DNA from: Gammaproteobacteria bacterium
Lineage (GTDB): Bacteria; Pseudomonadota; Gammaproteobacteria; CBDBNL01; JAAOII01
Assembly (NCBI GenBank): GCA_965215225.1
Contig: OZ244039.1
Span: 111,771 to 175,770, forward strand
Reading direction: 5' to 3'
DNA: 64,000 nt
A program made the translations under genes and the position numbers. Below are positions 31,811 to 50,800 of this stretch, piece after piece. The notes under the pieces were generated by a model. That model searched no databases. It saw only the letters and a list, made by a program, of their open reading frames with translations, and was not told the origin of the DNA. The first letter of the stretch is position 1, and each line of letters opens with the position of its first letter.

Positions 31811-31925
31811 ACGGGATTATATAATCCCATTCAAAATAATCAACAAAGAGGTTTCAAAATGTGTAAAAAGCATTATACCCACCTTTCAGTGAAAGAAAGA
31901 TATATGATAGAAGAAATGAGAAAAG
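31811..31925 (+). mobile_element. IS30-family left-end remnant (IRL palindrome gggattatataatccc plus start of the transposase gene).
   Basis: Sequence similarity to 3085-3200 of the intact copy. Confidence 0.55.
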
Positions 31926-32067
31926 ACACTCTATAAGGCCCCGTCTTTTTATCTGAAGGAAAGGAAATGGATGACTGTTAGAGTCCAATATGCAATGGAA
32001 AATTCCTCTCATCGATTAGATGCTAATATTTGAAATTGTCTAATTTTATTGTGGGCTCCCCTTTCAA

Positions 32068-33384: not shown

Positions 33385-33422
33385 ATGTCTTGATATTATT
33401 AATGATTATAGCTCCTTTTCAA

Positions 33423-34754: not shown

Positions 34755-34785
34755 GAAAGTTTTGAATAATTAAAGCGATATCTTA

Positions 34786-35105
34786 TTAGTTCTTTTTTCT
34801 TACTCCAAGATACGAAAACAGCTTTTTAAGTTCTCTTTTGCTAAAATAATAGAATTCTTGCCCTAAGATTTTAATAAGCGCGTACCGGCTAAGTTTTCTA
34901 TTGGCAAGGCGATTAGTAGCATGATAGAAATATATCCCTTCCTTTATTAAGTAATAGGGATAGAGTGTAATTAATACTACTTCTCGCATTATCTTATAGT
35001 AGTGCCATTTTATATTAGTCTTAGGGGGTCTAGTGTAGTCTAAGTAACGAGATGGTATCTTTCTTTCTATGGCTTTAATCATGGATTTATTTAGTTGAAT
35101 AGTAA
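34786..35105 (-). pseudogene. Detached C-terminal domain of the IS30-disrupted DXD glycosyltransferase-like gene (see 36201-37056).
   Basis: ORF 34786-35118 (...IQLNKSMIKAIERKIPSRYLDY...LITLYPYYLIKEGIYFYHATNRLANRKLSR...) aligns with the C-terminal 100 aa of the intact paralogue 39661-40830 (IPLNKYVIRAIGKNILFLYLY...LIILYPYYLINEGIYFYHAANRLTNRKLSR). Its first codons (MGICL) come from the IS end. Confidence 0.75.
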
Positions 35106-36200
35106 GGCAGATTCCCATCTAGAATGCAACACTTGTTTCTAAATTATAGTTTATCCCGCTAAGTTGTTGGAACACTTCGGCGGGGGTTTTGAAGCCGAGG
35201 CACTTTCGTGGTCGGTTGTTCAATCGGGTCATGATTTTTATTATCATTTCTTTGGGTAGATTTCGCAAGGACATTCCTTTCGGCAGATACTCGCGGATGA
35301 GTTTATTGATACTTTCATTGGTACCTCTTTCCCAGCTGCGATAAGGCGTGGCGAAGTAGGTATCGCAGTTGAGTTTTTCGGCTATCTTCTGGTGGTCGCT
35401 GAACTCCCGCCCATTATCGAAAGTGATGGTATGGACCCAGTCGGCGATGGGTTGGAGCATGGCGGAGATAGCTTTTTCGATTGAGACCTTGTCTTTGTGT
35501 TGCACCTGGGCCATCAAGGTAAAACGGGAAGCTCGATCCACTATGGTCACTAAGAACCCTTTATGGTTGGCACCATGCATGGTATCGGCTTCCCAGTCGC
35601 CTAATCGCGTGCGTTGTTCCACTATGGCGGGGCGCTTTTCGATGCCGACCCGTCCTGGAATACACTGTTTATAGGCTTTTCGTCTATGATCATGACCGTG
35701 ATGGCGTCCTTTATTGCGAAGCAAAATATGCAGGTCACCGCTTGCTTTGCGATCCTTTGCGATCCACCGATACAGCGTATTTTTAGAAGGAGCGGGCTTC
35801 CCTATAAGACGCCAGCGCTCTACAATCTGCTCTGGACTCCATTGGATTTCTAATAAAGAGCGCACTTCTTCCTTCATCCGTTCCGTTAGAACCTCGTAGT
35901 AAGAACGTTCTAACTGTCGGGCTTGGCTTTTTTGATGCGCTTGTAAAGACGGCCGCCGCGCTTCCCGCGATTGCGCTGGATCTCTCGGCTAATAGTAGAA
36001 GGACAACGATCTAAGCGCCGAGCTATAAAGCGTATGCTCTTTCCTTCTCGCCTCATTTTTTCTATCATATATCTTTCTTTCTTTGAAAGGGGGGTATAAT
36101 GCTTTTTATACATTGTGACACCTCGTAATAATTTTTCTTGGATGGGATTATATAATCCCATCCAAGAAAAGAGGTGTTGCACTGATGGTGGGAATTTGCC
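35106..36200 (-). mobile_element. Second IS30-family copy (1095 bp, ~98% identical to copy 1) flanked by a 3-bp TSD 'taa' at 35103-35105 and 36201-36203. Its transposase gene carries a frameshift and is split into ORFs 35119-35877 and 35910-36209.
   Basis: Direct comparison with 3062-4157. Copy 1 gcggctatcgtcatttacaagc reads gcggcggccgtctttacaagc in copy 2 (1-bp loss), changing ...GKRGYRHLQAHQ... to ...GKRGGRLYKRIKKAKPDS*. Confidence 0.85.
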
Positions 36201-37056
36201 TAAAAACATAAGTTTGATTCTTTACTAAGGATTTATCAGATAAAGAATAGTTTGTTCTTTGATTTATTAGCTTAAACAATTCTGGTGATCCTTTATATAG
36301 ATGCATCATAATAAAGTAGTTCCAGTGCGAATTAGTGTCATTAAAACGATCATTAAGACTTATTAGAGGCTTATTCTTATAAGTTATGCCTTTGTTAGTG
36401 TCACTATTAATTCGTAAGAGGTCATGAATCACCACTCTTGATTCATGAGAATATACATTTGCCCGCCATCTTAGCCTTAAGTTATAATTTGGCGAAAAAT
36501 GGAATAGGGTAAAATATTTGGCAACATCACTTAAGCAAATTTGTTCTATAAAAGGGGAGGAACCTTTTGCCATTGCATTTCTCCACCAGTGAGGGAATTC
36601 CTTATTGTTAACAAAAATCCATGCACCACTATATTTGCCATATATATTAATCTCGCGTAGAGGACGCCTTGGTGTCAGACCCAGATCTTTGCTATCATCA
36701 ACCAAGCCAAGAGGAGAAGTGATGACGACATCCGCATCCATGTATAGGCTATTGGGATGGTGTTTTAAAGCTTGCTCAATAATAATAGATTTTTGACTTA
36801 GGAACTCTATTGCTTCTGGAACACTTAGTAACTTCCAATTTTTATTTCCATATTTTTCTAATCCCAAGGTTATAGTGATATTTGTTGGTAAACCAGTCTC
36901 TTGTTCTAGTCTCTTCCTCACTATTGATTGAGCCGAGATAAAAATCGGCATGTCTGGGTGAAATACTACAATAGAACGGAGCAACAAGAGCAGCTCATCA
37001 TAGAACGGAAAGCTAGCCATGGTGGCGATAGAACGAATGTTAGTAGTTTTTGTCAT
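36201..37056 (-). pseudogene. N-terminal ~285 codons of a DXD-motif glycosyltransferase-like gene interrupted by IS30 copy 2. Removing the IS and one TSD restores an in-frame gene (...KNQTYVF-T-IQLNKS...).
   Basis: ORF 36148-37056 runs into the IS IR. Paralogous to 39661-40830 (YMDADVVITSPLG vs FMDSDVTIASPLG). Confidence 0.75.
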
Positions 37057-37106
37057 AAAGCTTTAATTAATGTAGATAATGCGCAAATAATCCACTCTCC
37101 ATTAAA

Positions 37107-38111
37107 TTATTTGCTCTCACCTGTGTCCTCCTCTTTTTTAGGTCTCAACCATTTCACCCAAATATAATGCAGTTGCAGTCCGATAAATACAGAAATAGGA
37201 TAGATGAAAAGGAATATTATGGCCCTTCTGCTCATAAATCTTCTATCCCAGAAAGATTTAACCAAAAACACAAGCCGTCTCTGGTAAGCCCTTAAAGTAT
37301 CCAAGACTGAATTCTTCACACTATTGGCATGTCTTGCTCGAGCTACCTCTTCATCATAAAGAGGATTTAGAATACTCACCTTTCCACCCTCTTCAAAATC
37401 ATACCCCAACAGACTTAAATCATCCGCATAGATTTCTTCTACCAGCCGTCTTGTGGGCTTGTCATAATAGTCACTATAATGCCTTTTTTTACCTTCCCCT
37501 ACTCTTCGGCTTAAGGAAACATTGCCTTTGGGTAGATCATGATTGGGCGCACCTAGTATATTCATCACGCAGCGCAAATCTTTCTCTAGGGTTTCATATC
37601 TCCCAATGAAAGAACAGGGGGCACTGTTGCATCGCTTGACACCAAAATAGTACTCAGGGTTATAATCCAACAAAAAATCTTTTTGGTATCTACAATGATG
37701 GCCTTCATACCAAAGGTCACAAAGAGGCACCCTATGAGGCCCCATCTCTCTATCTGAAGAAAGAGAAGTAGATGACCGATAGATTAATAGATCCTTAACA
37801 AGCTCCGCATACTCCCTTAGACTATGATTGCGCATAGGGTTCCTTTTAAACTCTTTCCTGTTAGGATCAAATCGATGCAACCAAGCAGAGACAAACTTGT
37901 CAAATGGATTACGGACAAAAATAAAAGTGAAATAGGTCGGAACCATATTAATACAGTGTGGAAGTCTATCCAAATAATTGCCCAGATAGCGGTGGCCTAA
38001 CGAAGATTCTGTAGAATGCCCCTTCACAAAAAAACGGAAATAATTATCCAGACTAGAGCTGGCAACCTTAGGGTGGTTAATATATATATATCTATATTTA
38101 TAAGATATCAT
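37107..38111 (-). CDS. Carbohydrate sulfotransferase-like protein, paralogue 2.
   Basis: MISYKYRYIYINHPKVASSSL...FVRNPFDKFVSAWLHRF. C-terminal hydrophobic helix IIFLFIYPISVFIGL. Confidence 0.6.
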   Translation of the reverse strand: MISYKYRYIYINHPKVASSSLDNYFRFFVKGHSTESSLGHRYLGNYLDRLPHCINMVPTYFTFIFVRNPFDKFVSAWLHRFDPNRKEFKRNPMRNHSLREYAELVKDLLIYRSSTSLSSDREMGPHRVPLCDLWYEGHHCRYQKDFLLDYNPEYYFGVKRCNSAPCSFIGRYETLEKDLRCVMNILGAPNHDLPKGNVSLSRRVGEGKKRHYSDYYDKPTRRLVEEIYADDLSLLGYDFEEGGKVSILNPLYDEEVARARHANSVKNSVLDTLRAYQRRLVFLVKSFWDRRFMSRRAIIFLFIYPISVFIGLQLHYIWVKWLRPKKEEDTGESK

Positions 38112-38153
38112 CTGATCCTTTCCCTAATAAATCCCTCATTGAATCCTACTAGC

Positions 38154-39131
38154 TTACCCCATTAGCCAGCGTTTTATGTCACGACAAATGTCATACAAAC
38201 CGATAAATGTAAGAAGCGGCAAAACAAAAAAGAACTTAATAACCCTTCTGCTGATAAATTTTCTATCCCAGAAAGACTTAACCCAAAACATAGACCGCCG
38301 TTGGTAAGCCCTTACAGCATCGAAGACTGAATTCTTCATGCTATTGGCATGTCTTGCCCGAGCCACCTCCTCATCATAAAGAGGATTTAAAACGCTCAGC
38401 TTCCCAGCCTCTTCAAAATCATAACCTAATAGATTCAGATCATCCGCATAGATTTCTTCTACCAGCCGTCTTGTCGGTTTGTCATAATAGTCACTATAAT
38501 GTCTCTTTTTACCCCCATCCACTATTCGGCTTAAGGAAACATTATGCTTGGGTAGCTTGTAGTATGGCGCGCCTAGTATATTCATCACGCAACGCAAATC
38601 TTTCTCTAGGTTCTCATATCTCCCAATAAAAGAACAGGGGGCATTGTTACATCTTTTAACATCATAATAGTACTCGGGGTTATAATTCAACAATAAATCC
38701 TTTTGTCTCCCCAAATGAAGTCTTTCATACGGAAGATCGCAAAAAGGTACTCTATGAGGCCCCATTTCTTTGTCTGGAGGAAAAGAGGGAACTGGCGAAC
38801 TATTCAATAGATCCTTAGTAAGTTCCGCATACTCCCTTAGGCTATGATTAGGTATAGGGTGATCTTGAAATCCTTTTCTATTAGGGTCAAGTCGAGGCGC
38901 CCAAGTAGCAACAAATCTATCAAATGGATTGCGAACGAAAACAAAAGTAAAGTAGGTTGGAAACATATTAATACAGTGAGGAAGCCTAGCCTGATAATAG
39001 CCGTGATAATAGCGGCCTAAGGGGCGTACTATCTCATGCCCTGCCAAAAAATCCTTGACATAAGCCCTCAGACTAGTGCTAGCAACCTTACCATTGCGAA
39101 TAAGTATACATCTATATTTATAAGATATCAT
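38154..39131 (-). CDS. Carbohydrate sulfotransferase-like protein, paralogue 3.
   Basis: MISYKYRCILIRNGKVASTSL...FVRNPFDRFVATWAPRL. C-terminal FFFVLPLLTFIGLYDI. Confidence 0.6.
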   Translation of the reverse strand: MISYKYRCILIRNGKVASTSLRAYVKDFLAGHEIVRPLGRYYHGYYQARLPHCINMFPTYFTFVFVRNPFDRFVATWAPRLDPNRKGFQDHPIPNHSLREYAELTKDLLNSSPVPSFPPDKEMGPHRVPFCDLPYERLHLGRQKDLLLNYNPEYYYDVKRCNNAPCSFIGRYENLEKDLRCVMNILGAPYYKLPKHNVSLSRIVDGGKKRHYSDYYDKPTRRLVEEIYADDLNLLGYDFEEAGKLSVLNPLYDEEVARARHANSMKNSVFDAVRAYQRRSMFWVKSFWDRKFISRRVIKFFFVLPLLTFIGLYDICRDIKRWLMG

Positions 39132-39184
39132 ATGATCCTTTCCTCATAAATACTTAAACATGAATTCCCGTCATAGGTGCAACC

Positions 39185-39360
39185 CGTTTAGATGGGATTA
39201 TATAATCCCATCTAAGATAACCAAAAGATAGGTCTCGGGTAAAAAGTATTATACCCATCTTTCAAAGAAAGAACAAGCAATGATAGAAAAAATGAGGAGA
39301 GAAGGAGGCATAGCTTGGCGCTTAGATCCTTGTCCTGCTACTATTAGCCGAGAAACTCAG
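39185..39360 (+). mobile_element. IS30-family left-end remnant. It is the same diverged subtype as 786-970 and shares the variant ...attagccgagaaactcag.
   Basis: gatgggattatataatcccatctaag...tttcaaagaaagaacaagcaatgatagaaaaaatgaggagagaagg... Confidence 0.6.
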
Positions 39361-39660
39361 TGGGATCAATTATAATGACAGGTGCTGCGCTCTAAGTGTT
39401 AATCCACCGCGCGTCATCCACATTAATTAAGGGAACTACATAGTATCTTCCACAAATCCATAAATCCCCTTATTCCACTCTCTTTTTGATGAGTGTCTGT
39501 AAAAGAAAATCTGTGAAGCTGTTAAACTTCGCTTCCTTTATTGGCGGAAGGTCTGACCGTAAATAGTCTCACTTTTTATGACTTCTCCGCTTCGGGGCTT
39601 TCTTTTTCACAATATTTTCTTTTGTGGAAGATTGGATATAATTCCCTTAATTAAAGCTTC

Positions 39661-40830
39661 ATGACAGAAAATACTAACATCCGTTCCATCGCCACCATGG
39701 CTAGCTTACCAGTCTATGATGAGTTGGTCTTGTTGCTCCGTTCTATTAAAGTGTTTCATCCAAACATACCGATTTTTATCTCAGCCCAATCAACGGTGAA
39801 GAAGAGGCTAGAACAAGAAACCGGGCTGCCCGCAAACATCACTATAACCTTGGGATTAGAAAAATATGGAAACAAAAATTGGAGGGTATTAAGTGTCCCA
39901 GAAGCAATAGAGTTCCTAAGTCAAAAATCTATTATCATTGAACAAGCTTTAAAGCACCATCCCAATAGCCTATTTATGGATTCGGATGTCACCATTGCTT
40001 CTCCCCTTGGCTTGATTGATGATAGCAAAGATCTGGGTCTGACACCAGCTGTTCCAGAGCTCATTACCAAATTCGGCAAGTATAATACCGGGTGGGTCTT
40101 CGTTAACAACAAGGAGTTTCCTCACTGGTGGAAAAATGCAATGGCAAAAGGTTCTTCCCCTTTTATAGAACAACTTTGCTTAAATAATGCTGCCAAATAT
40201 TTTGACCTGTTCCACTTCCCACCAAATTATAATTTTTCTCCCAATAAGCAGCTAAGCCATTCTGGTAATAAGCCAAGAGTACAGCTCCATCGTTTTTTAC
40301 GAATTAACAGTGATACTGACAAAGGCATAACCTATGAGGATAAGCCTCTTATAAGTTTTCACCATCGTTTTAATGGCATTAATTCGCCCTGGGACCATTT
40401 TATTATGATGCATCTGTATAAAGGATCACCAGAGTTGTTTAAGCTAATAAATTCGAGCACAAACTATTCTTTATCTGATAGATCCTTAGCAAAGAATGAG
40501 ACCTATGTTATTTTCGCTATTCCACTAAATAAGTATGTGATTAGAGCCATAGGAAAAAATATACTATTTCTTTACTTATACACTAGATCCACCAAGACTA
40601 ATATAAGAAGATACTACTATAAACTAGTTCAAAGAATAGTACTCATCATACTCTACCCTTACTACCTAATAAATGAAGGGATATACTTCTATCATGCTGC
40701 CAATCGCCTTACCAATAGAAAACTTAGTCGGCAAACGCTTATTAAAATCCTAGGGCAAGCATTCTATCATTTTAGTAAAGGAAAACTTCAAAGGCTATTT
40801 TCGTATTTTGGGGCAAGAACTCCAAGATAA
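39661..40830 (+). CDS. DXD-motif (GT-A-like) putative glycosyltransferase, intact paralogue (389 aa) with a C-terminal hydrophobic domain.
   Basis: FMDSDVTIASPLG (DXD), WVFVNNKEFPHWW. C-terminal RIVLIILYPYYLINEGIYFYHAANRL. Fold and family assignment tentative. Confidence 0.4.
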   Translation: MTENTNIRSIATMASLPVYDELVLLLRSIKVFHPNIPIFISAQSTVKKRLEQETGLPANITITLGLEKYGNKNWRVLSVPEAIEFLSQKSIIIEQALKHHPNSLFMDSDVTIASPLGLIDDSKDLGLTPAVPELITKFGKYNTGWVFVNNKEFPHWWKNAMAKGSSPFIEQLCLNNAAKYFDLFHFPPNYNFSPNKQLSHSGNKPRVQLHRFLRINSDTDKGITYEDKPLISFHHRFNGINSPWDHFIMMHLYKGSPELFKLINSSTNYSLSDRSLAKNETYVIFAIPLNKYVIRAIGKNILFLYLYTRSTKTNIRRYYYKLVQRIVLIILYPYYLINEGIYFYHAANRLTNRKLSRQTLIKILGQAFYHFSKGKLQRLFSYFGARTPR

Positions 40831-40842
40831 TCCTTAGGGCGG

Positions 40843-40930
40843 TTTCGGGTAAAAGAGCATTGTATACACCTTTCAGAGAAAGAACGATATATGGTAGAAG
40901 AAATCAAAAAAGACGGAGTAGCTTGGCGAA
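40843..40930 (+). mobile_element. Short IS30-family left-region remnant lacking the IR.
   Basis: ggtttcgggtaaaagagcattgtatacacctttcagagaaagaacgatatatggtagaagaaatcaaaaaagacgg parallels 39231-39300. Confidence 0.45.
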
Positions 40931-40934
40931 AGAT

Positions 40935-41075
40935 TACACAGAGGACTTTCTTTAAACTCTTCGGGTCAGATAGATTCAACCAAGAAGAAACAAACTTATC
41001 AAATGGATTACGGACATAAAGACCCAGACTAGAGCTAGCAACCCTATTTATAAGATATCATTTGATCCTTTCCTT
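40935..41075 (-). pseudogene. Heavily deleted sixth sulfotransferase paralogue. Only the 5' end and promoter-proximal region are retained.
   Basis: ...ttcaaccaagaagaaacaaacttatcaaatggattacggaca...ctagagctagcaaccctatttataagatatcatttgatcc matches the 5' ~140 bp of the other paralogues (atatttataagatatcat = MISYKY start). Confidence 0.5.
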
Positions 41076-41083
41076 GAGATACC

Positions 41084-42079
41084 TCATTGAATCCTATTAG
41101 TCTGACCTCTTAAATATTGTCTCACTCTATAGGCAATGTCATACAACCCGAAAAACGTAAGAGCCGGAAAAACAGAACAGAACTTAATAACCCTTCCACT
41201 GATAAGTTTTCTATCCCAGAAAGATTTAACCAAAAAGATAAGCCGCCGTTGGCAAGCCATTAAAGTATCCAAGACTGAACCCTTCATACTATTGGCATAT
41301 CTTGTCCGAGCTACCTCCTCATTATAAAGAGGATTTAAAACGCTCAACTTCCCAGCCTCTTCAAAATCATAACCCAATAGCTCCAAATCATCCGCATAGA
41401 TTTCTTCTACCAGCCGTCTTGTGGGCTTGTCATAATAGTCCCTATAATGTCTCTTCTCATTTTCCTTTGCTCTGCGGCTTAAGGAAACATTGTCTTTGAA
41501 CAATTTATATTGGGGCGCACCTAGTATATTCATCACGCAGCGCAAATCTTCCTCTAGGGTTTCATATCTCCCAATGAAAGAACAGGGGGCGCTGTTGCAT
41601 CGCTTGACACCAAAATAGTACTCAGGGTTATAATCCAACAAAAAATCTTTTTGGTATCTACAATGATGGCCTTCATACCAAAGGTCACAAAGAGGCACCC
41701 TATGAGGCCCCATTTCTCTATCTGAAGAAAGAGAAGTAGATGACCAATAGATTAATAGATCCTTAACAAGCTCCGCATACTCCTTTAGACTATGATTGCG
41801 CATTGGGCTCTCTTTAAACTCTTTCCTGTTAGGATCAAATCGATGCAACCAAGCAGAGACAAACTTGTCAAATGGATTACGGACAAAAGCAAAAGTGAAA
41901 TAGGTGGGAAACATATTAATGCAGCGAGGAAGCCTATCAAGATGAGCAGCTATGTAGGAGAGGTCTAAATAGGGTTGCATAGGATGCCCTCCCAAAAAAT
42001 TCCCGAAATAGTTTCTTATGCTAGTGCTGGCATTCTTAGGAATGCGAACATATATACATCTATATTTATAAGATATCAT
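41084..42079 (-). CDS. Carbohydrate sulfotransferase-like protein, paralogue 4.
   Basis: MISYKYRCIYVRIPKNASTSI...FVRNPFDKFVSAWLHRF. C-terminal VFPALTFFGLYDIAYR. Confidence 0.6.
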   Translation of the reverse strand: MISYKYRCIYVRIPKNASTSIRNYFGNFLGGHPMQPYLDLSYIAAHLDRLPRCINMFPTYFTFAFVRNPFDKFVSAWLHRFDPNRKEFKESPMRNHSLKEYAELVKDLLIYWSSTSLSSDREMGPHRVPLCDLWYEGHHCRYQKDFLLDYNPEYYFGVKRCNSAPCSFIGRYETLEEDLRCVMNILGAPQYKLFKDNVSLSRRAKENEKRHYRDYYDKPTRRLVEEIYADDLELLGYDFEEAGKLSVLNPLYNEEVARTRYANSMKGSVLDTLMACQRRLIFLVKSFWDRKLISGRVIKFCSVFPALTFFGLYDIAYRVRQYLRGQTNRIQ

Positions 42080-42116
42080 CTGACCCTTTCCTTTAAATAC
42101 TTAAATAGAAAACTCC

Positions 42117-43112
42117 TCATTGAATCCTACCAGTCCGACCTTTTAGATATCGTCTCATTCTATAGGCAATGTCATGCAAGCCGACAAATGTAAGAAGCGG
42201 CAAAATAAAAAAGAACTTAATAACCCTGCTGCTGATAAATTTTCTATCCCAGAAAGACTTAACGAAAAAGATAGACCGCCATTGGCAAGCCTTTAAAGCA
42301 TCCAAGACTGAGTTCTTCATACTATGGGCATATCTTGCCCGAGCCACCTCCTCATCATAAAGAGGACTTAGACCGCTTGGCTTGCCAGCCTCTTCAAAAT
42401 CATACCCAAATAGTTCCAAATCATCTGCATAGATATCCTCTACCAACCGTCTTGTTGGCTTGTCATAATAGTCACTATAATGCCTCTTTTTACCTTCTCT
42501 TACTCTTCGGTTTAAAGAAATATTGGCCTTGGGTAGCTTATGATTGGGCGAACCTAGTATATCCAGCAAGCAGCTAAAATCCCTCTCTAGGTTTTCATAT
42601 CTCCCAATGAAAGAACAAGGAGCCTTGGTGCATTGCTTGACATCATGATAGGAGTTGAGATCATGAACCAACAAAAAATCCTTTTGGCGGATAAAATGAT
42701 GCCTTTCAAATTTAAGGTCAAGAAAAGGCATCTTGTGGGGTCCTATTTCTTTATCCGAAGGAAAGGAAATAGACGACTGATAGATTAATAGCTCCTTAGC
42801 AAGCTCCGCATACTCCCTTAGACTATGATTATATCTAGGTGTTTGATTAAATGGCCACCTAGTAGTATCAAATCGATGCAACCAGGTAGAAACAAATCTA
42901 TCGAATGGATTGCGAACAAATGTAAAAGTGAAATAAGTAGGGAACATATTAATACAATGCGGAAGTCTATCAAGATAAGCGCCTACATAGGAGTGGCCTA
43001 AACAGATTTCTATATTATGTCCTGCCATGAAATTCTTGAAATATTCTCTTATGCTAATGCTGGCAGTCTTGGGATTGTGAATATATATACATCTATACTT
43101 ATAAGATATCAT
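42117..43112 (-). CDS. Carbohydrate sulfotransferase-like protein, paralogue 5.
   Basis: MISYKYRCIYIHNPKTASISI...FVRNPFDRFVSTWLHRF. C-terminal FFFILPLLTFVGLHDIAYR. Confidence 0.6.
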   Translation of the reverse strand: MISYKYRCIYIHNPKTASISIREYFKNFMAGHNIEICLGHSYVGAYLDRLPHCINMFPTYFTFTFVRNPFDRFVSTWLHRFDTTRWPFNQTPRYNHSLREYAELAKELLIYQSSISFPSDKEIGPHKMPFLDLKFERHHFIRQKDFLLVHDLNSYHDVKQCTKAPCSFIGRYENLERDFSCLLDILGSPNHKLPKANISLNRRVREGKKRHYSDYYDKPTRRLVEDIYADDLELFGYDFEEAGKPSGLSPLYDEEVARARYAHSMKNSVLDALKACQWRSIFFVKSFWDRKFISSRVIKFFFILPLLTFVGLHDIAYRMRRYLKGRTGRIQ

Positions 43113-43226: not shown

Positions 43227-44825
43227 CTAAAAACTATATTCTAGCCCTATCCTCATTCCTATAGTTAAGCCGGCCGGTTCCAGTTCGCGATCACTGCCAG
43301 CTGGGGCATTCTCTCCATCCTCAGAGCGGGCTTGAGAAGCATAGACGAAATTGCTGAGATACTGAAACGCCTCCAACGAGACGCCATACTTCAACGAATC
43401 ATAAAAATCATTGGCATAATAAAGGCTCCCGCCAAAAGCAAAACTAAGAAAACCAGCTATAGCGCCGATAGTATGTTGTTGGCGAAGACCAAATTCACGC
43501 CCGACATTGAAGGCGGGAAGCACATTGCCAAAAGGTCCACCGTCTTCTTCCGGAAAGGCCGCATCCTGTAAGCCAATCGCCTTGTCTGCCCGCCGTCCGA
43601 AATAATCGAAATATATCAGATAGACATTAAAGAAGTTCCTATCACCATAGTAGTCAAACCCCCAGGCAACAATATACTGATCCGCCGCCACAGTCAAACG
43701 ATTATTATTATCCATCTGAATGAAATCGCGATAATCTCGTTGCGCTGGGCTCATCGCTGATTCAGTAATCGCTTCAAATCTTAAAGGAAAAGTGGCTGGC
43801 TCGGCTAGGATCTCAAACTTGATATTAAATCTATCAAGCGGAACTGATAGTTCAAAGCCATAGGCGAGCCTTCGCTCAATAGTCGGCAGGGTCTCACTAT
43901 AGAACCACTTCTCAACTTCCCCACCCCGCCCACCTTCACCGCCTCCCCCACCTCCAACGCTCCTCACTGTCCCCTCCCTAAGAATTGCCACATCACTGCC
44001 AAACACAAAGGCGTTATAGCCTTGATAAACAGTCCAACCATAAACTATCTTAGGGCTAGTATATATCAAGCGAAGCAAATACTGAGATTCGTCGGCCGGA
44101 ACATCCAGCCGAACCGCCACATTATCACCGCAGTCGCCAGCTTCATAGTCGTCATAGGTTTGGCAAGCTGGCTCTAGCAGCGGATTAAAATACTGCTCTG
44201 GGGATGCCTGGGCTACATCCAAAAGAGCATCACTAGTGAGAGAAGGAAAGTAAACCGTTTCAAGCAACCAGTTGCCGAAGGCAAAATCATTCCGCACTGC
44301 CAGCTGCGGCAGACGATAGTCTGCTTTATTGTAGGTAAGGCGAGTATTAGTAACATCCACTGGCAAGACAAAATCAACTGGCGAGAAGATATCAAATTGA
44401 CCTATAGTGATGGCTTGCCGCCCGAAGGCGAAATCCCAGTATTCAGTCGGTGCCAATTTAATATATGCCTCGCGCCATTCATTATCCATCACCTCAAAAG
44501 ACTGGGTCGGGCCAGGGTCGCCATCCTCGCCACGAGCCAGAGTCAGATCCACCTTTGAAGCATAGCCAATATATTCTGCCACCACTAGTCCGTCCCGCCA
44601 GTCCTCTTGATAGCGCAGCCGCAACTGGAGATTAGACCGACTGTTATCTGCATCGCCCAGACCGGCTTCACTGGCTATAAAATTACCGCCAAAATGCTTG
44701 GTCAGATAACTAGTTGGCCCTTCCTCTGCCTCCTCAATCACTATAAATGACAAGGTTTCATTTTCTGCCATCGAGAAAGATGACGACAAGAGAACAAATA
44801 TGCCAACAAAAGAACGACTTTTCAT
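43227..44825 (-). CDS. Putative outer-membrane beta-barrel protein (532 aa).
   Basis: Signal peptide MKSRSFVGIFVLLSSSFSMA-EN. Aromatic-rich alternating strands. C-terminal ...RIGLEYSF. Gly-rich loop GGGGGEGGRGGE. Confidence 0.5.
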   Translation of the reverse strand: MKSRSFVGIFVLLSSSFSMAENETLSFIVIEEAEEGPTSYLTKHFGGNFIASEAGLGDADNSRSNLQLRLRYQEDWRDGLVVAEYIGYASKVDLTLARGEDGDPGPTQSFEVMDNEWREAYIKLAPTEYWDFAFGRQAITIGQFDIFSPVDFVLPVDVTNTRLTYNKADYRLPQLAVRNDFAFGNWLLETVYFPSLTSDALLDVAQASPEQYFNPLLEPACQTYDDYEAGDCGDNVAVRLDVPADESQYLLRLIYTSPKIVYGWTVYQGYNAFVFGSDVAILREGTVRSVGGGGGGEGGRGGEVEKWFYSETLPTIERRLAYGFELSVPLDRFNIKFEILAEPATFPLRFEAITESAMSPAQRDYRDFIQMDNNNRLTVAADQYIVAWGFDYYGDRNFFNVYLIYFDYFGRRADKAIGLQDAAFPEEDGGPFGNVLPAFNVGREFGLRQQHTIGAIAGFLSFAFGGSLYYANDFYDSLKYGVSLEAFQYLSNFVYASQARSEDGENAPAGSDRELEPAGLTIGMRIGLEYSF

Positions 44826-44897
44826 TATCTTAATAAGAATATCAAATACAAAAGGAGTTGTGACTCATTATAATTCAACAAAATGAGCGGGGATTAA

Positions 44898-44975
44898 AAC
44901 AAGGAAACAGAGGAAACAAGAAAGCAAAGGAAACAAGGAAACAAGAAAACAAAGAAAACAGAAAGAGAATGAAAC
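44898..44975. repeat. Octanucleotide (GGAAACAA/GAAAACAA)n tract, ~10 units, 70-150 bp upstream of the OMP gene start.
   Basis: Direct reading: aacaaggaaacagaggaaacaagaaagcaaaggaaacaaggaaacaagaaaacaaagaaaacagaaagag. Confidence 0.8.
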
Positions 44976-45015
44976 CCACTATAATTACTTTATTATGACA
45001 AACCGAAAAGAACCA

Positions 45016-46336
45016 TTATGACAAGGAGAGAAGGAGCAACCAAGCACCTGCTCAAAGAAGAGTCTTATTTCATCAAACGGCAGCTAAGAAGCTATGCTGG
45101 CGCCCTATAATTGCTTCATTATGACAAGGAGAGAAGGAGCATGACAAAGCAAGAAGAAAGAGCATGACAAGGCGAGAGGAAAGAGCATGACCAGGAGAGA
45201 AGGGAGAGAAGCAACAACCAAGCACCTGCTCAAAGAAGAGTCTTATTTCATCAAACGGCAGCTAAGAAGCTATGCTGGCGCCCTATAATTGCTTCATTAT
45301 GACAAGAGGAGGAGCATGACAAGGAGAAGAAAGAGCATGACAAAGCAAGAAGAAAGAGCATGACCAGGAGAGAAGGGAGAGAAGCAACAACCAAATACCT
45401 GCTCAAAGAAGAGTCTTATTTTATCAAACGGCAGCTAAGAAGCTATGCTGGCGCCCTATAATTGCTTCATTATGACAAAGCGAGAAGGAGCATGACAAAG
45501 CAAGAGGAAAGAGCATGACCAGGAGAGGAAAGAGCATGACAAAGCAAGAGGAAGGAGCATGACAAAGCGAGAGAAAGGAGCATGACCAGGCGAGAGGAAA
45601 GAGCATGACAAAGCAAGAGGAAAGAGCATGACCAGGAGAGAAGGGAGAGAAGCAACAACCAAGCACCCGCTCAAAGAAGAGTCTTATTTTATCAAACGGC
45701 AGCTAAGGAGATATGCTGGCGCCCTATAATTGCTTCATTATGACAAGGAGAGAAGCAACAACCAAGCACCCGCTCAAAGAAGAGTCTTATTTTATCAAAC
45801 GGCAGCTAAGAAGCTATGCTGGCGCCTTATAATTGCTTCATTATGACAAGGAGAGAAGGAGCATGACAAAGCGAGAAGAAAGAGCATGACCAGGCGAGAG
45901 GAAAGAGCATGACCAGGAGAGAAGGGAGAGAAGGGAGAGAAGGAACAACCAAATACCTGCTCAAAGAAGAGTCTTATTTTATCAAACGGCAGCTAAGGAG
46001 ATATGCTGGCGCCCTATAATTGCTTCATTATGACAAGGAGAGAAGGAGCAACCAAGCACCTGCTCAAAGAAGAGTCTTATTTTATCAAACGGCAGCTAAG
46101 GAGATATGCTGGCGCCCTATAATTGCTTCATTATGACAAAGCGAGGAGGAGCATGACAAAGCAAGAGGAAAGAGCATGACAAAGCAAGAAGAAAGAGCAT
46201 GACAAAGCAAGAGGAAAGAGCATGACAAAACAAGAGGAAGGAGCATGACAAAGCAAGAGGAAAGAGCATGACAAAGCGAGAGAAAGGAGCATGACAAAGC
46301 AAGAGGAAAGAGCATGACAAAGCAAGAGGAAGGAGC
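45016..46336 (+). repeat. Array of ~7 tandem duplicates of the permease gene 5' end (5'UTR, ATG and first ~30 codons, each ending in a premature TAA), interspersed with a variable number (1-9) of 23-bp repeats (gagcatgacaaagcaagaggaaa).
   Basis: atgacaaggagagaaggagcaaccaagcacctgctcaaagaagagtcttatttcatcaaacggcagctaagaagctatgctggcgccctataa recurs. The real gene at 46337 reads ...gctggcgcctggtcgctc. The 23-bp period keeps all three minus-strand frames open, which produces the artefactual ORFs at 45424-46377. Confidence 0.85.
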
Positions 46337-47797
46337 ATGACCAGGAGAGAAGAAGGAACAACCAAATACCTGCTCAAAGAAGAGTCTTATTTTATCAAAC
46401 GGCAGCTAAGGAGATATGCTGGCGCCTGGTCGCTCTGGTCTTTGGGAGTGGCGGCCGTAATAGCCGGCAACTTTTATGGCTGGAACTTTGGTCTTGCCGC
46501 TGGCGGCTTCGGTGGGATGCTAGTGGCAACCCTAGTGATAGCGATCGCCTATATATGTATGTGCTTCTCCCTAGCCGAGCTCTCGCCAGCTCTGCCGCAT
46601 ACTGGCGGCGGCTATTCATTTGCTCGCACCGCGATGGGACCCTTGGGCGGCTTCATTACGGGGCTTGGCGAGTCAATCAAATACATCCTCACGCCAGCGG
46701 TCATAGTAGTTGGCATAGGAAGCTACCTAGACACCATCTTCTCTCATTCCTTTGGCATAACCCTAGCCCCTCCCATCTGGTGGCTCATCACCTATGGCAT
46801 TTTTGTTGCCATTAATCTTCTCGGCGCCGAGATTAGCTTCAAGTTCACTGTCTTCATTACTTTTCTTGCCCTGCTGGTATTGTTGCTCTTTTGGATAGGC
46901 ACCATCCGATACATTCAGTGGGAAAATGCTTACAATATCGCCCCTCAGCTTGGTGCTTCCCTCTTCTTGCCTTTTGGTTGGAAAGGGATTGCGGCTGCTT
47001 TGCCATTCGCATTCTGGTTCTACCTTGCCATTGAACTATTGCCCTTGGCAGCTGAAGAGACACAAGAGCCCCACATCAACATACCCAAGGGACTGTTATG
47101 GGGCATAGCAACCCTAGTGGTTGTTTCCTTTCTTACCTTAATACTCAGCTCCAGCATTGCACCTGGCGCGGCCGGGCTGAGCAATTCAGCCCAACCTTTG
47201 TTCATCGCTTTCAAGACCATCTTCGGCACTAGTATCAACGCATCATTTCTTTCCTTAATAGTGGTCCTAGGGCTTATCGCAAGTTTTCATACCATCATCT
47301 ATGCCCATAGCCGCAACATCTTTGCTCTCAGTCGGGCTGGTTATTATCCCAAATGGCTATCTCACACCAATCAAAAGAGCAAAAGCCCTTATGCTGCTCT
47401 CATAGCTGGGGCGATCCTCGGTTATCTAATGGCTCTGATGATAGAATTTGACAGCCAGCTCTTTGGCGATCTTCCCGTAGGTGCAACCCTCCTAGGCATG
47501 GCGGTTTTTGGCGCCCTCATATCCTATATCATGCAGATGCTATCCTTTATTCTTTTAAGGCGCAATCAGGCTTATATCACTCGTCCTTTCATCAGCCCGC
47601 TCGGCAGTTTCGGTGCCTTTGTGGCATTGGTAATTTTTTGTGTCGCGCTGATTACTCTGCTAAGCATCTATTTGCAAGGTATCTATGGCTGCCTCATCTG
47701 GTTCGCTATAGGCCTAGCCTATTTCTTCCTTTATGCTCGCCGCCGAATGATACTATCGCCAGAGGAAGAATTTGCTTTGAACAATCGCATCAAATAG
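46337..47797 (+). CDS. APC-superfamily amino-acid/ethanolamine-type permease (12 TM).
   Basis: 486 aa polytopic membrane protein. GGGYSFARTAMGPLGGFITG-type segment and length are typical of APC transporters. Confidence 0.65.
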   Translation: MTRREEGTTKYLLKEESYFIKRQLRRYAGAWSLWSLGVAAVIAGNFYGWNFGLAAGGFGGMLVATLVIAIAYICMCFSLAELSPALPHTGGGYSFARTAMGPLGGFITGLGESIKYILTPAVIVVGIGSYLDTIFSHSFGITLAPPIWWLITYGIFVAINLLGAEISFKFTVFITFLALLVLLLFWIGTIRYIQWENAYNIAPQLGASLFLPFGWKGIAAALPFAFWFYLAIELLPLAAEETQEPHINIPKGLLWGIATLVVVSFLTLILSSSIAPGAAGLSNSAQPLFIAFKTIFGTSINASFLSLIVVLGLIASFHTIIYAHSRNIFALSRAGYYPKWLSHTNQKSKSPYAALIAGAILGYLMALMIEFDSQLFGDLPVGATLLGMAVFGALISYIMQMLSFILLRRNQAYITRPFISPLGSFGAFVALVIFCVALITLLSIYLQGIYGCLIWFAIGLAYFFLYARRRMILSPEEEFALNNRIK

Positions 47798-47801
47798 CAC
47801 C

Positions 47802-50800
47802 TTAGTATCCTCTCTGCAAACCAACTCCGCCAGCTGCGCATCTTAGGGCTGGATATTGATTACTATTGCCAAAATCCCAAACTCGGTTATCATCTACTGC
47901 CTCTTCCCGATCTACCCACCCATTGTTATTAAGATCACACCAAATGGTTACATTCATATCCCAGCCAGCATTGAATCCCATCTCAACAATTTCATCCCAC
48001 TCGTCATAAATAGCTGTATAGTCGGTTGGCTGCTTCAGTTCGCTTGCTGTCTTATGAGTACCAAAAGTGCCCTGTGAGTCATCTTTATAGACCTTGTTCT
48101 CATTATTACTATAATGACCATACCAACCTATCAACCCACCTATATCACTAGACCCGTTCACGGTATTTTCGGCGGCATAGGAATAGGATATTCCCGACGA
48201 GTCCATTCTCCCCACTAGACCACCACCACTAGAATCTACCAATATAGAGTTTGCGCGAGCATAAGAAGAAATCACATCGCTAGCACGGTATTGTCCTATC
48301 AAGCCACCCCCATTAACCGAAGCCGATATATTGGAATTGCCTACATAAGAAGAAAAGGTCACCACACCAGTTCCATGACCTAGGAGTCCACCGACCCTAT
48401 CAACACCAGTCACTCGATTGGCGTAAGAGACAGAAAACATCAACTCAGTGTTTATAGAGCTTCCTATGAGCCCGCCCACCTCCTCTTGTCCATTCACACT
48501 TAGTTCAGAAGCTGCCACTTGATAAAAACTAGAGCCCACATCTTCACCTACTAGGCCGCCTGCTTGGGATCCGCTGGCGTTAACCTTGCTGTTATGAATA
48601 CTAATCTCAATAAGCTCCGCTTTCCGAGTCAGTCCCATTAAGCCACCGACTCCTTGCTGCCCATTGACTATCACCCTATCTAAGTGGATATTTGTCATTC
48701 GCGCGCCCTCCCCAGCAAAAGACGCCAGCACGCCAACCTTTTGCGCTCCAGTCACATAGGCTTGATCTATATAAAGATTGCGAATCTCACTATCAGAACC
48801 CAGGCTAGTGAATAAACCCGAGTTATCTTGACCAGGCCGAGCTATAGTGAGATTGTAGATAGTATGGTTATTGCCTTCAAAAACAACATCAAACTCATCA
48901 GTTGGACTTCCTAAGGGTTGCCAGTCGGCTGCGCCACTCATATCTATATCCTGTGTCAGCTCATAACCCACACATTGCCGCTCTGGGCAGCTATTAATAT
49001 CCATCATGTCATCTAGATGCAAACCGCCATGACGAATTCCATCCATATCAGCCCTGCTGGCAATTTCCATTAAACCATTATTATCATAATCCTTGTCGCA
49101 AGCATCACCGCTGCCGTCTTCGTCATAATCTAGCTGGGCAAAATTAGCCTTAATAGGACAATTATCCTCATGGTCATAGAACCTATCGCTATCGCAATCC
49201 TTAACCAAGCGGCAGGCCTCAGCCGCCTCATCGACATCCAAAACCCCATCATTGTCATCGTCCGTATCACAAGCATCGCCAGCCAAGTCTAGGTCTGAGT
49301 TCAGTTGGTCTGGATTTGCATCAACCTGACAATTATCACTATTGTCCCCTATGCCATCCCCATCTGTATCCTGTGATTCTTGGTTGTTCAAAGGAAAAGC
49401 ATCTACATCATCCCGCGCCGAATCCCCATCGCAATCTGCTACCAAACGACAGCTTGCCAGTGCCTCATCCTCATCCAAAACACCGTCATTGTCGTCATCA
49501 GAGTCACAAACATTGCCATCCCCATCATTGTCGGTATCCAACTGAACGGGATTGGCAACCGAAGGACAGTTATCACCATTATCGCCACGGCTATCATTAT
49601 CACTGTCTTGCCATTCAGCCCTATCAAGCGGAAAAACATCCACATCATCCCGCGCCGAATCCCCATCGCAATCGGCTACCAGGCGACAGCTTGCCATGGG
49701 TTCGTTCTCATCCGCCACCCCATCATTGTCGTCATCCGAGTCGCAACGATTGCCAGTCCCATCTCCATCCGTATCCAACTGAACGGGATTGGCAACCGAA
49801 GGACAGTTATCGCCATTATCACCATATCCATCCGCATCACCGTCTTGCCATTCAGTCCTATCAAGCGGGAAAAGATCCATATCATCCCTCACCAGATCGC
49901 CATCGCAGTCGGCGAGCAAACGGCAAGCTCTTATAGCCTCATCTTCATCCGCAACTCCATCATTGTCGTCATCCGAGTCGCAAAGATTGCCAGTCCCATC
50001 ATTGTCTGTATCCAACTGAACGGGATTGGCAACCAAAGGACAGTTATCACCATTATCACCATGACCATCCTCATCACTGTCTTGCCATTCAGTCCTATCA
50101 AGCGGGAAAGCATCAAGATCATCCCGCGCCAGATCCCCATCGCAATCGGCGAGCAAACGGCAGCCAGCCGCCTCAGCGGTATCTAAGACACCATCATTGT
50201 CGTCATCCGAGTCGCAGACATTGCCAGCATTGTCCGTGTCTGTATCCAACTGATTCGGATTGGCAACCAAAGGACAATTATCACCATTGTCGCCATAGCC
50301 ATCCCCATCGCTGTCTTGCCACTCAGCAGAATTCAATGGGAAAAGATCAACATCATCTCGCACCAGATCACCATCGCAGTCCTGTTCTATTTGGCAAGAC
50401 TCGGCCGCCTCATTAATATCCAGCACCCTATCATTATCATCATCCTCATCACAAGCATCCCCAGTCCTATCGCCATCTGTATCCAACTGGTCGTCATTTG
50501 CAGCCACAGGACAATTATCCTCAGGGTCAAGACGACCATCGTGATCGCAATCTGCCAGCAAGCGACATATTGATGCCACTTCATTCAGATCCAAAATGCC
50601 ATCATTGTCGTCATCAGCATCGCAAGCATCCCCAAGCTGATCGCCATCTGTATCCAGCTGATCGCCATTGGCATTCGCCGGACAATTATCCTCATAGTCA
50701 GAATGACCGTCATTATCACAATCTGAATTCAGAACACACTCGGCCCTCTCCTCAACATCTGCTAAGCGGTCATTGTCATCGTCCTCATCCAGGCTATCAG

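What the first reader, a model, noticed from the sequence alone, without database searches (positions are those of the whole stretch)
45016..46336. Permease gene preceded by ~7 tandem pseudo-starts plus a frame-shifting 23-bp repeat
The 5'UTR, ATG and first ~30 codons of the APC permease (MTRREGATKHLLKEESYFIKRQLRSYAGAL*) recur ~7 times upstream of the real gene. Each copy is terminated by TAA because gcgccCtataa replaces gcgccTggtcg. Between copies there are 1-9 units of a 23-bp repeat (gagcatgacaaagcaagaggaaa). Each unit contains its own ATG and an in-frame TGA (MTKQEERA*). Because 23 is not a multiple of 3, unit-number changes would reset frames. This is the second instance in the window of a 'decoy start array'.
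Basis: seen in the sequence. Interest (0 to 1): 0.65.

Follow-up and report, generated by a model that had tools for sequence, protein, structure and literature searches.

The report
Nested tandem duplications of a gene start
The promoter box, start codon and first 30 codons of an ethanolamine transporter gene have been copied head-to-tail seven times in front of the real gene, with a 23-base start-codon repeat nested inside; the array is young, varies between strains and is most likely a tolerated by-product of unusually active tandem duplication in this bacterium, not a frame-switching device.

Summary
Window 44980-46426 holds eight head-to-tail modules of [TATAAT-N9-ATG + first 30 codons] of an ethanolamine permease gene. 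Seven are truncated and the eighth is the gene (46337-47797). Inside the modules lie 0-9 copies of a 17-23-bp unit that repeats the start codon and the purine-rich first codons, plus a 9-bp in-frame repeat.

Two sister species (80-87% nucleotide identity, same gene order) have a single TATAAT-N9-ATG and no array. A sister strain has four modules where the window has eight, and 3 units before the real start where the window has 9.

The "frame reset" idea is wrong. Every unit is a closed mini-ORF whose TGA overlaps the next ATG (ATGA), and the permease has its own ATG in the last unit.

The window has the same kind of array at other gene edges: polA 3' end/mnmA 5' end, mnmA 3' end, and the 5' end of an 1812-aa gene. 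All 19 repeat arrays inside genes have periods divisible by 3; only 11 of 41 intergenic ones do.

Best reading: a lineage-specific burst of tandem duplication filtered by selection. Possible side effects on expression are extra -10 boxes, a 31-ORF relay and a new Shine-Dalgarno site.

The closest known case is the copy-number-variable promoter tandem repeats of M. tuberculosis. I rate it a new variant of a known kind.

The parts
44896..44962 (+). Purine-rich 8/17/25-bp microsatellite (AAACAAGG...) just upstream of the array. The sister strain has one extra 8-bp unit.
   Evidence: TRF; alignment A2
44980..45105 (+). Module 1. It holds the native TATAAT (44980-44985) and, after 9 nt, the decayed ancestral start (ATG 44995, 8-codon ORF MTNRKEPL*). 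One old 23-bp duplication follows, then decoy ORF 1 (45018-45110, 30 aa, ending in TAA).
   Evidence: alignment to the single-copy sister species
45106..45283 (+). Module 2: TATAAT-N9-ATG, 3 mini-ORF units (20, 23, 23 bp), decoy ORF 45187-45288 (33 aa).
45284..45456 (+). Module 3: 3 units (17, 21, 23 bp), decoy ORF 45360-45461 (33 aa).
45457..45724 (+). Module 4: 7 units (20, 23, 21, 23, 23, 23, 23 bp), decoy ORF 45628-45729 (33 aa).
45725..45827 (+). Module 5: bare 103-bp module with no units; decoy ORF 45740-45832 (30 aa) starts 9 nt after TATAAT.
45828..46014 (+). Module 6: 3 units; decoy ORF 45909-46019 (36 aa) with three copies of the 9-bp GGGAGAGAA repeat.
   Evidence: TRF period 9 at 45916-45943
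46015..46117 (+). Module 7: bare 103-bp module; decoy ORF 46030-46122 (30 aa).
46118..46336 (+). Leader part of module 8. The last TATAAT (46118-46123) is followed by 9 mini-ORF units (one of 20 bp, eight of 23 bp), each ending in a TGA that overlaps the next ATG. The last unit supplies GAGGAAGGAGC directly upstream of the real ATG.
   Evidence: predicted duplex with a canonical anti-SD sequence -8.2 kcal/mol
46337..47797 (+). Intact ethanolamine permease gene (486 aa, APC superfamily).
   Evidence: TIGR00908 equivalog 396.1 bits against a cut-off of 381.75; Pfam AA_permease_2 and AA_permease; homologues at 60-63% identity named ethanolamine permease by their sources
43227..44825 (-). Divergently oriented 532-aa gene with no family assignment. 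It is the conserved left neighbour in all relatives and anchors the synteny.

Best explanation
This is a young, strain-variable, three-level nested tandem-repeat array, built only from the permease gene's own promoter-proximal sequence.

Ancestral state (shown in two sister species): a perfect TATAAT box lies 9 nt before the ATG with no Shine-Dalgarno sequence. That is the layout of a leaderless or nearly leaderless mRNA.

Origin (inferred): one duplication joined codon 30 (..GCTGGCGCC) to the base before TATAAT, at 2-3 nt of microhomology, and made a 103-bp module. Unequal recombination or slippage then multiplied the modules and mixed their variants. Inside the modules, the first about 20 nt of the ORF (ATGACAAGGAGAGAAGGAGC) were duplicated again as 20-23-bp units. 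A 9-bp in-frame repeat arose within those.

Why it is tolerated (inferred): a tandem duplication that spans a gene's 5' end always leaves an intact copy at the 3' side. Here every partial copy is also closed by a stop, either TAA inside TATAAT or TGA inside ATGA.

Context: the same process has hit other gene edges in this genome, both 5' and 3'. Inside genes only in-frame periods survive. The array is therefore best read as a tolerated product of a lineage-specific high rate of tandem duplication.

Consequences read from the sequence, not tested:
(a) The real ATG now lies 213 nt downstream of the nearest -10 box, not 9 nt.
(b) It has gained a strong Shine-Dalgarno sequence made from the gene's own purine-rich codons 3-7.
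(c) An unbroken relay of 31 short ORFs (24 ATGA overlaps, 7 gaps of 10 nt) links the first leaderless AUG to the permease AUG, so termination-reinitiation could carry ribosomes through.
(d) Eight -10 boxes are present, so module number may tune transcription.
For: Anatomy.

Single-copy ancestral state at the same syntenic site:
- L001/L002: 91% aa, 83-87% nt identity.
- L004: 80-83% nt identity.
- TATAAT-N9-ATG is conserved in all, while the flanking intergenic DNA has diverged.

Strain variation:
- L003 comes from another sample and is 98.8% identical over the 9.7 kb downstream. It has 4 modules with 1, 3, 3 and 3 units, against 8 modules with 1, 3, 3, 7, 0, 3, 0 and 9 in the window. Modules 1 and 2 are shared.
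- Even the upstream 8-bp microsatellite differs by one unit.

Recombination among modules: 6 variable sites in the 67-nt core show all four allele combinations for 8 site pairs.

A general process, not a device for starts:
- The polA 3' end plus the mnmA start is duplicated about 6 times with a nested 12-bp repeat. The sister species has polA, 9 nt, then mnmA. The array varies in sister-strain locus L005.
- The mnmA 3' end and stop are duplicated; L001 has a single copy.
- Three copies of an 87-bp unit repeat the start of the 1812-aa gene.
- TRF covers 17.8% of the window. It covers 0% of L002 and L004 and 1.6% of L006. In L001 it finds only arrays inside the large repeat-protein genes.
- Periods are divisible by 3 in 19 of 19 arrays inside ORFs but in only 11 of 41 intergenic ones.

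Leaderless context: exact TATAAT lies 6-13 nt before the starts of four other genes that lack an SD (5640, 7564, 7628, 23659). About 0.2 would be expected from 78 TATAAT sites in the window.

SD gain: -8.2 kcal/mol before 46337, against +1.8 before each ATG that follows a TATAAT.
Against: - No reads were available, so the exact copy numbers rest on the assemblies.
- No transcription or translation data exist. Leaderless status, activity of the internal TATAAT boxes and the ORF relay are all inferences from sequence.
- The internal TATAAT boxes have no recognisable -35 element and lack the native A-rich upstream DNA, so they may be silent.
- 'Neutral by-product' is hard to prove. The array persists in two strains, the relay is unbroken in both, and copy number differs, which is also what an adaptive expression rheostat would look like.
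- The cause of the high duplication rate is unknown. DNA-repair gene content could not be examined from 64 kb.
Confidence: 0.68

Rival explanations
1. Adaptive expression rheostat or phase-variable promoter array. Changes in module and unit number, by slippage or unequal recombination, tune transcription (number of -10 boxes) and translation (length of the mini-ORF relay, SD context) of the ethanolamine permease. This would generate subpopulations with different uptake capacity, as proposed for the promoter tandem repeats of M. tuberculosis.
For: Each module carries a perfect TATAAT at the spacing conserved in sister species. Copy number differs between two near-identical strains at both repeat levels. 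The ORF relay is unbroken in both strains. There is a precedent: 57-bp and other promoter tandem repeats next to leaderless promoters vary at 10^-2 to 10^-3 per chromosome in M. tuberculosis (PMC12817950).
Against: Arrays of the same architecture sit at a gene junction inside an operon-like pair (polA-mnmA) and at a gene 3' end, where no promoter logic applies. The internal boxes lack a -35 element and the native upstream region. Conservation of ATGA in the units is not beyond chance: 7 variable positions of 23 and none in ATGA gives P about 0.2. Among the 6 variable core sites, 3 are synonymous and 3 non-synonymous, which says nothing either way. Sister species manage with one copy.
Confidence: 0.22
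2. Frameshift-type contingency locus, the first reader's idea: gain or loss of 23-bp units switches the permease reading frame on and off.
For: Unit length is not a multiple of 3, and unit number varies between strains.
Against: All units lie upstream of the permease ATG. Each is closed by its own TGA, and the ATG at 46337 with its upstream 16 nt is the same kind of unit end in every module. No reading frame runs from the units into the gene.
Confidence: 0.02
3. Assembly artefact: a single 5' end was spuriously expanded by the assembler.
For: Repeats are error-prone in assemblies. A sister-strain contig (L005) breaks inside the polA-mnmA array.
Against: Two assemblies from different samples contain the array with the same junction and the same first two modules. 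The copies differ from one another by point substitutions and unit numbers in a mosaic pattern, which spurious expansion of one sequence would not produce. The window contig is reported as 2.3 Mb long, and the sister contig names (contig_5, ctg93776l) look like long-read assembler output; that last point is my inference.
Confidence: 0.04
4. The short ORFs are functional leader peptides or small proteins, for example attenuation-type sensing or 30-36-aa peptides that act on the permease.
For: 31 intact short ORFs, many with SD-like sequences.
Against: They are absent from the sister species. The peptides are only the cytoplasmic N-terminus of the permease, cut before its first hydrophobic stretch. 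No terminator or antiterminator structure is present: 0 terminator-like sites and a folding z-score of +0.73. There is no Rfam match.
Confidence: 0.04

Closest known systems
Promoter tandem repeats (PTR/VNTR) with copy-number variation in Mycobacterium tuberculosis (dop 57-bp, lpdA, cysG; PMC12817950)
   Same: Head-to-tail duplication of the promoter region directly upstream of genes, some with leaderless promoters. Copy number differs between strains. Generated by slippage or recombination. Easily missed by short-read sequencing.
   Different: Here the repeated module also includes the start codon and 30 codons of the gene, so it creates truncated ORFs. It is nested on three levels (103, about 23 and 9 bp). 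Up to 8 modules and 9 units are present. No expression or within-population data exist. The host is an uncultured gammaproteobacterium, and similar arrays also sit at gene 3' ends.
MIRUs (mycobacterial interspersed repetitive units) with ORFs coupled to the downstream gene at -4 nt (review PMC12548453)
   Same: Short repeats placed at start codons, whose internal ORF ends in a stop overlapping the next start (ATGA). Translation of the downstream gene need not be disturbed. They occur as variable tandem arrays.
   Different: MIRUs are a dispersed, apparently mobile family. The units here are copies of the local gene start and occur nowhere else in the window or in the scanned collections.
Simple-sequence-repeat contingency loci (Haemophilus, Neisseria, Campylobacter; my own knowledge, and summarised in the introduction of PMC12817950)
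   Same: Repeats at the 5' end of a gene whose number changes by slipped-strand mispairing.
   Different: Those repeats lie inside the ORF, or between -35 and -10, and switch the frame or the promoter spacing. Here the units are 17-23 bp, lie upstream of the functional ATG and are each closed by a stop, so no frame switch is possible.
ATGA stop/start overlaps and termination-reinitiation coupling (PMC6728339 and PMC10666635, abstracts seen)
   Same: 24 of the 31 junctions in the relay are ATGA overlaps, the commonest geometry of translationally coupled gene pairs.
   Different: Known cases couple two real genes. Here up to nine 8-codon ORFs are chained by one repeated unit, and coupling is untested.
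Intergenic TAACTGA heptamer direct repeats just upstream of start codons in Beggiatoaceae and cyanobacteria (PMC4679880)
   Same: A lineage-wide abundance of short tandem repeats in 5' regions close to start codons, with no canonical ribosome-binding site and an unknown role.
   Different: That is one dispersed heptamer motif. Here every array is built from its own local sequence, and the units include the start codon itself.

Membership tests
Bacterial VNTR / minisatellite locus | Head-to-tail copies of a unit of 10 bp or more | tested here: met
   TRF periods of 23, 103, 173 and 290 with scores of 88-1325; parsed modules
Bacterial VNTR / minisatellite locus | Copy number differs between strains of one species | tested here: met
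   Window: 8 modules and 9 terminal units. L003: 4 modules and 3 terminal units. The flank is 98.8% identical
Promoter tandem repeat (M. tuberculosis PTR type) | The repeated unit contains the gene's promoter element | tested here: inconclusive
   Each module starts with a perfect TATAAT at the spacing conserved across species. No -35 element is found, and no TSS data exist
Promoter tandem repeat (M. tuberculosis PTR type) | Copy number changes expression; variants coexist within a population | not testable with these tools
   Needs reads, TSS mapping and reporter assays
Frameshift-type SSR contingency locus | Repeat number sets the reading frame of the gene, or the -35/-10 spacing | tested here: not met
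   All units are upstream of the ATG at 46337 and each is closed by TGA. The units lie downstream of TATAAT, not between promoter hexamers
MIRU-like coupled repeat | ORF within the repeat overlaps the next start by 4 nt (ATGA) | tested here: met
   24 junctions of -4 nt in the window and 10 in L003
MIRU-like coupled repeat | Dispersed family present at many loci | tested here: not met
   All 18 matches of the unit lie in 45137-46332. No matches in metagenome or viral contigs
Ethanolamine permease (EAT family, TIGR00908) | Score above the curated equivalog cut-off over the full length | tested here: met
   396.1 bits against 381.75; residues 21-478 match model positions 2-441 of 442
Leaderless gene (ancestral state of this permease) | -10 box a few nt upstream of the start codon and no SD | tested here: met
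   TATAAT-N9-ATG in L001, L004 and window module 1; anti-SD duplex +1.8 kcal/mol
Leaderless gene (ancestral state of this permease) | Transcript 5' end at or within about 3 nt of the AUG | not testable with these tools
   Needs 5'-end mapping

The most novel reading that the evidence does not exclude
In this gammaproteobacterial lineage, tandem self-duplication of leaderless start cassettes is a regular, copy-number-tunable layer of gene control. Module number would set the number of active -10 boxes. The 23-bp units would convert a leaderless gene into a Shine-Dalgarno-led one by recycling its own purine-rich first codons. A chain of ATGA-coupled mini-ORFs would relay ribosomes to the real start. 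Strains and cells would thus differ heritably but reversibly in ethanolamine uptake, and in the expression of other genes that carry such arrays.
Probability: 0.12. Interest if true: 0.75.

Novelty: new variant of a known kind. Interest (0 to 1): 0.45.

Why it matters
If the array is only a by-product, it is still useful in three ways.
- It is a clean natural example of how selection filters a high background of tandem duplication. Inside genes only in-frame periods survive. At gene edges any period is allowed, provided one intact copy remains and the partial copies are closed by stops.
- It shows a plausible route by which a leaderless gene acquires a leader and a Shine-Dalgarno site from its own coding sequence.
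- It flags a lineage whose genome annotation, gene-start calls and short-read assemblies will be misled by such arrays. A sister-strain contig breaks inside one.

If copy number does tune expression, it would extend the recently described promoter-tandem-repeat phase variation of M. tuberculosis to an unrelated, probably host-associated gammaproteobacterium. It would also add a translational component, the mini-ORF relay.

Tried and rejected
- **RNA element:** no Rfam match at gathering score or at E<=1. The leader folds no better than shuffles, z = +0.73. No terminator-like sites.
- **Sigma-70 promoter scan:** no +-strand -35/-10 pair at any module. Four minus-strand TTGTCA-18-CATAAT hits are the reverse complement of the repeated ATTATG...TGACAA. 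I treat them as a by-product.
- **Coding on the minus strand:** ORFs of 72-86 aa there are low-complexity translations of the pyrimidine-rich strand. Rejected.
- **More array-bearing strains:** exact look-up of the window's own permease found nothing. The junction pattern and the unit dimer are absent from JGI metagenome contigs and viral contigs. A search with the neighbouring 532-aa protein gave no further contigs of this species.
- **Organism identity:** no close relative of the permease in genome contigs. Named PolA homologues at 46-48% are Coxiella, Legionellales and unclassified Gammaproteobacteria. Sample accessions and gene-content keywords found no paper. The organism stays 'uncultured, deep-branching gammaproteobacterium'.
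- **Selection on decoy peptides or on ATGA:** too few independent changes to say anything.
- **Literature on nested tandem repeats in bacteria or in symbiont genomes:** nothing relevant.

Full report
**1. What is there**

Reading 44400-48400 and running TRF shows a dense repeat block upstream of a 486-aa ORF (46337-47797, + strand). Anchor searches and explicit parsing resolve it into eight head-to-tail modules. They start at 44980, 45106, 45284, 45457, 45725, 45828, 46015 and 46118.

Each module has three parts in order:
- TATAATTGCTTCATT, that is TATAAT plus 9 nt, followed by an ATG.
- 0 to 9 short units, each beginning ATGAC and mostly 23 bp long. The first unit after the TATAAT is 20 bp. 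Two units are 21 bp and one is 17 bp.
- A long start of the form ATGAC[AC]AGGAGAGAAGG...AACCAAGCACCTGCTCAAAGAAGAGTCTTATTT..GCTGGCGCC.

In seven modules the next base run is [C/T]TATAAT. This places TAA in frame and ends a 30-36-aa ORF. In the eighth module the sequence continues TGGTCG... into the full gene.

A third nested repeat, GGGAGAGAA, is 9 bp long and in frame. It is present in 1-3 copies in the long starts.

The 67-nt module cores are on average 95.4% identical. The 23-bp unit has 18 matches at up to 3 mismatches, all inside the array, against 0 in shuffles.

**2. The gene and the organism**

The ORF is an ethanolamine permease. It scores 396.1 bits on TIGR00908 against a cut-off of 381.75, and it matches the Pfam amino-acid permease families. 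Thousands of homologues at about 60% identity exist, and those that carry a source name are called ethanolamine permease.

The PolA encoded in the window has named relatives only at 46-48% identity: Coxiella, Legionellales and unclassified Gammaproteobacteria. A profile scan of species-representative genomes found nothing closer. The organism is therefore an uncultured, deep-branching gammaproteobacterium.

Its neighbours in the window include eukaryote-like sulfotransferases and giant proteins with thrombospondin type 3 repeats. This suggests a host-associated lifestyle, which is my inference.

**3. Comparison with relatives: the decisive evidence**

Exact-protein look-ups gave four syntenic loci.
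- L001 and L002 (permease 91% aa, 83-87% nt) and L004 (80-83% nt) have the same neighbours. They carry a single copy...GAAACCC[TC]CTATAATTG[TC]CTCATTATGAC[CA]A[AG]GCGAGAAGGAGC..., followed directly by the gene.
- L003 comes from another sample. Its permease differs by one residue, and the 9.7 kb downstream is 98.8% identical. It has the array, but with 4 modules and 1, 3, 3 and 3 units. The window has 8 modules and 1, 3, 3, 7, 0, 3, 0 and 9 units.
- Modules 1 and 2 and the last module correspond between the two strains. The interior differs.

The array therefore arose after the split from the sister species. It is polymorphic within the species at both repeat levels. It is not a set of old paralogue fragments.

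Six variable sites in the core show all four allele combinations for eight site pairs. That is the signature of unequal recombination or conversion among modules.

Alignment to the single-copy species shows two further things. The first ATG of module 1 (44995) is the decayed ancestral start. The 20-23-bp units are copies of the first about 20 nt of the ancestral ORF.

**4. The frame argument**

I translated from every ATG in the array.
- Each unit is a closed ORF of 6-8 codons, or 15 codons where a 21-bp unit fuses two.
- Its TGA overlaps the next ATG, giving ATGA.
- The decoy long ORFs end at the TAA inside TATAAT, 10 nt before the next ATG.

Walking from 44995 to 46337 gives an unbroken relay of 31 ORFs, with 24 junctions of -4 nt and 7 junctions of +10 nt. 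L003 has the same in 13 ORFs.

The permease ATG lies in the last unit, so unit number cannot change its frame.

The ATGA geometry follows automatically from duplicating a unit that starts ATGA and has a length of 2 mod 3. Seven of the 23 unit positions vary and none of them is in ATGA, but that has a chance probability of about 0.2. There is no evidence that the relay is maintained by selection.

**5. Promoter and ribosome-binding context**

The TATAAT-N9-ATG arrangement, with no SD (+1.8 kcal/mol against a canonical anti-SD sequence), is conserved in three species.

Elsewhere in the window, exact TATAAT lies 6-13 nt before the starts of four other SD-less genes. About 0.2 would be expected by chance. 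Leaderless or near-leaderless mRNAs are therefore probably common here, and each module is a copy of such a start cassette.

The internal copies have lost the native A-rich upstream DNA, and no -35 element is recognisable. Their activity is unknown.

In the present gene the nearest TATAAT is 213 nt upstream. The ATG is preceded by GAGGAAGGAGC (-8.2 kcal/mol), which is made from the duplicated codons 3-7 of the gene itself. The duplications have thus probably converted a leaderless gene into an SD-led one; this is an inference. No RNA structure or known RNA family is present.

**6. It is one of many**

The window has the same nested architecture at other gene edges.
- The polA 3' end, its stop and the first 7 codons of mnmA are repeated about six times, with a nested 12-bp repeat (28640-29440). 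In sister species L001, polA and mnmA are 9 nt apart. The sister-strain locus L005 has a different version, and its contig ends inside the array.
- The mnmA 3' end and stop are repeated as 84-bp and 22-bp units (30485-30718). L001 has a single copy.
- Three copies of an 87-bp unit repeat the ATG and 28 codons of the 1812-aa gene (21717-21963, minus strand).

TRF covers 17.8% of the window. It covers 0% of L002 and L004 and 1.6% of L006. In L001 it finds only arrays inside the large repeat-protein genes.

All 19 TRF arrays that lie inside ORFs have periods divisible by 3. Among the 41 intergenic ones the periods are spread over all residues: 11, 12 and 18.

This is what a high, unspecific rate of tandem duplication filtered by purifying selection would leave. 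It explains why arrays pile up at gene edges: a duplication that spans a gene end leaves one intact copy.

**7. Verdict**

Best explanation (about 0.68): a young, hypervariable, nested tandem duplication of the permease's leaderless promoter/start cassette. It is a tolerated product of lineage-specific repeat instability, with untested side effects on expression.

Main rival (about 0.22): the same structure serves as a copy-number rheostat, as proposed for the promoter tandem repeats next to leaderless promoters in M. tuberculosis (PMC12817950).

Other comparisons:
- The -4 coupling resembles MIRUs (PMC12548453). Unlike MIRUs, the units are not a dispersed family.
- A frameshift contingency locus is excluded by the sequence.
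- An assembly artefact is unlikely, because two assemblies agree and the copies are mosaic variants.
- Functional leader peptides are unlikely.

Novelty: a new variant of a known kind. The process is ordinary. The three-level nesting, the duplication of the start codon itself, the 31-ORF relay and the apparent leaderless-to-SD conversion are unusual.

Interest: 0.45.

Noticed in passing
window 28640-29442: The last about 24 codons of polA, its stop, a 9-nt spacer and the first 7 codons of mnmA are repeated about six times between the two genes, with a nested 12-bp (GGTGGGTTTGGG) in-frame repeat. Sister species L001 has polA, 9 nt, then mnmA. Sister-strain locus L005 has a different version, and its contig ends inside it.
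   Followed up: yes
window 30485-30718: The 3' end and stop codon of mnmA are tandemly duplicated downstream of the real stop (84-bp modules, then 22-bp units). L001 has a single copy. This shows that the arrays also form at gene 3' ends.
   Followed up: yes
window 21717-21963 (minus strand): Three copies of an 87-bp unit hold the ATG and 28 codons of the 1812-aa repeat-protein gene. The upstream copies end in TAG. The last copy is 1 nt shorter in one segment, which shifts its frame past that TAG.
   Followed up: partly
window 11988-13034, 16044-16350, 22335-22591; L005 2805-3176: An 86-102-bp unit (..CTAGTCAAAGCCAGCTACCTATATATAAGAAGGAAAGCAGCTTGACTAGATG..) forms tandem arrays at three separate places. 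These flank and interrupt a roughly 12-kb segment (two large repeat proteins and a DNA methylase) that is absent between ccmE and znuA in sister species. Unlike the permease units, it is a dispersed family.
   Followed up: partly
window 61449-62488 (minus strand is the coding strand): About 1 kb of purine-rich short tandem repeats lies directly upstream of the 2506-aa gene: a 7-bp unit of the CAGAGGA/CAGAAAG type in about 87 copies, then a 14/28-bp unit AGCTAGCAAGGGGAAGTTAGAAAGGAGA. A-rich 11-bp repeats lie upstream of the 802-aa gene at 15817-15940.
   Followed up: no
window 5625, 7576(-), 7609, 23677(-), 9141: Perfect or near-perfect TATAAT boxes lie 6-13 nt before the start codons of SD-less genes: a polyketide-cyclase-like gene, an acetylglutamate-synthase-like gene, adenylate kinase, a DNA methylase and a ParA-like gene. 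Leaderless mRNAs are probably common in this organism.
   Followed up: partly
window 24195-24468: A 12-bp unit (GAAGAGCATGGT, Glu-Glu-His-Gly) is repeated about 23 times in frame inside the znuA-like gene, a strongly expanded His-rich loop.
   Followed up: no
window 43227-44825 against L003 7695-9275: The 532-aa neighbour gene is only 92% identical between the two strains, while the permease and the 9.7 kb downstream are 98.8-99.8% identical. The array sits close to a boundary between differently diverged segments, which hints at recombination between strains.
   Followed up: no
window 30780-43112: A cluster of at least six eukaryote-like Sulfotransfer_2 genes with glycosyltransferase (GT92-like) genes lies between mnmA and the 532-aa gene. 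It is much shorter in L001 and absent in L004.
   Followed up: no
window 45118-46159 (minus strand): Four promoter-like sites, TTGTCA-18-CATAAT with TG, are created on the antisense strand by the repeat itself. Possible antisense transcription was not examined.
   Followed up: no
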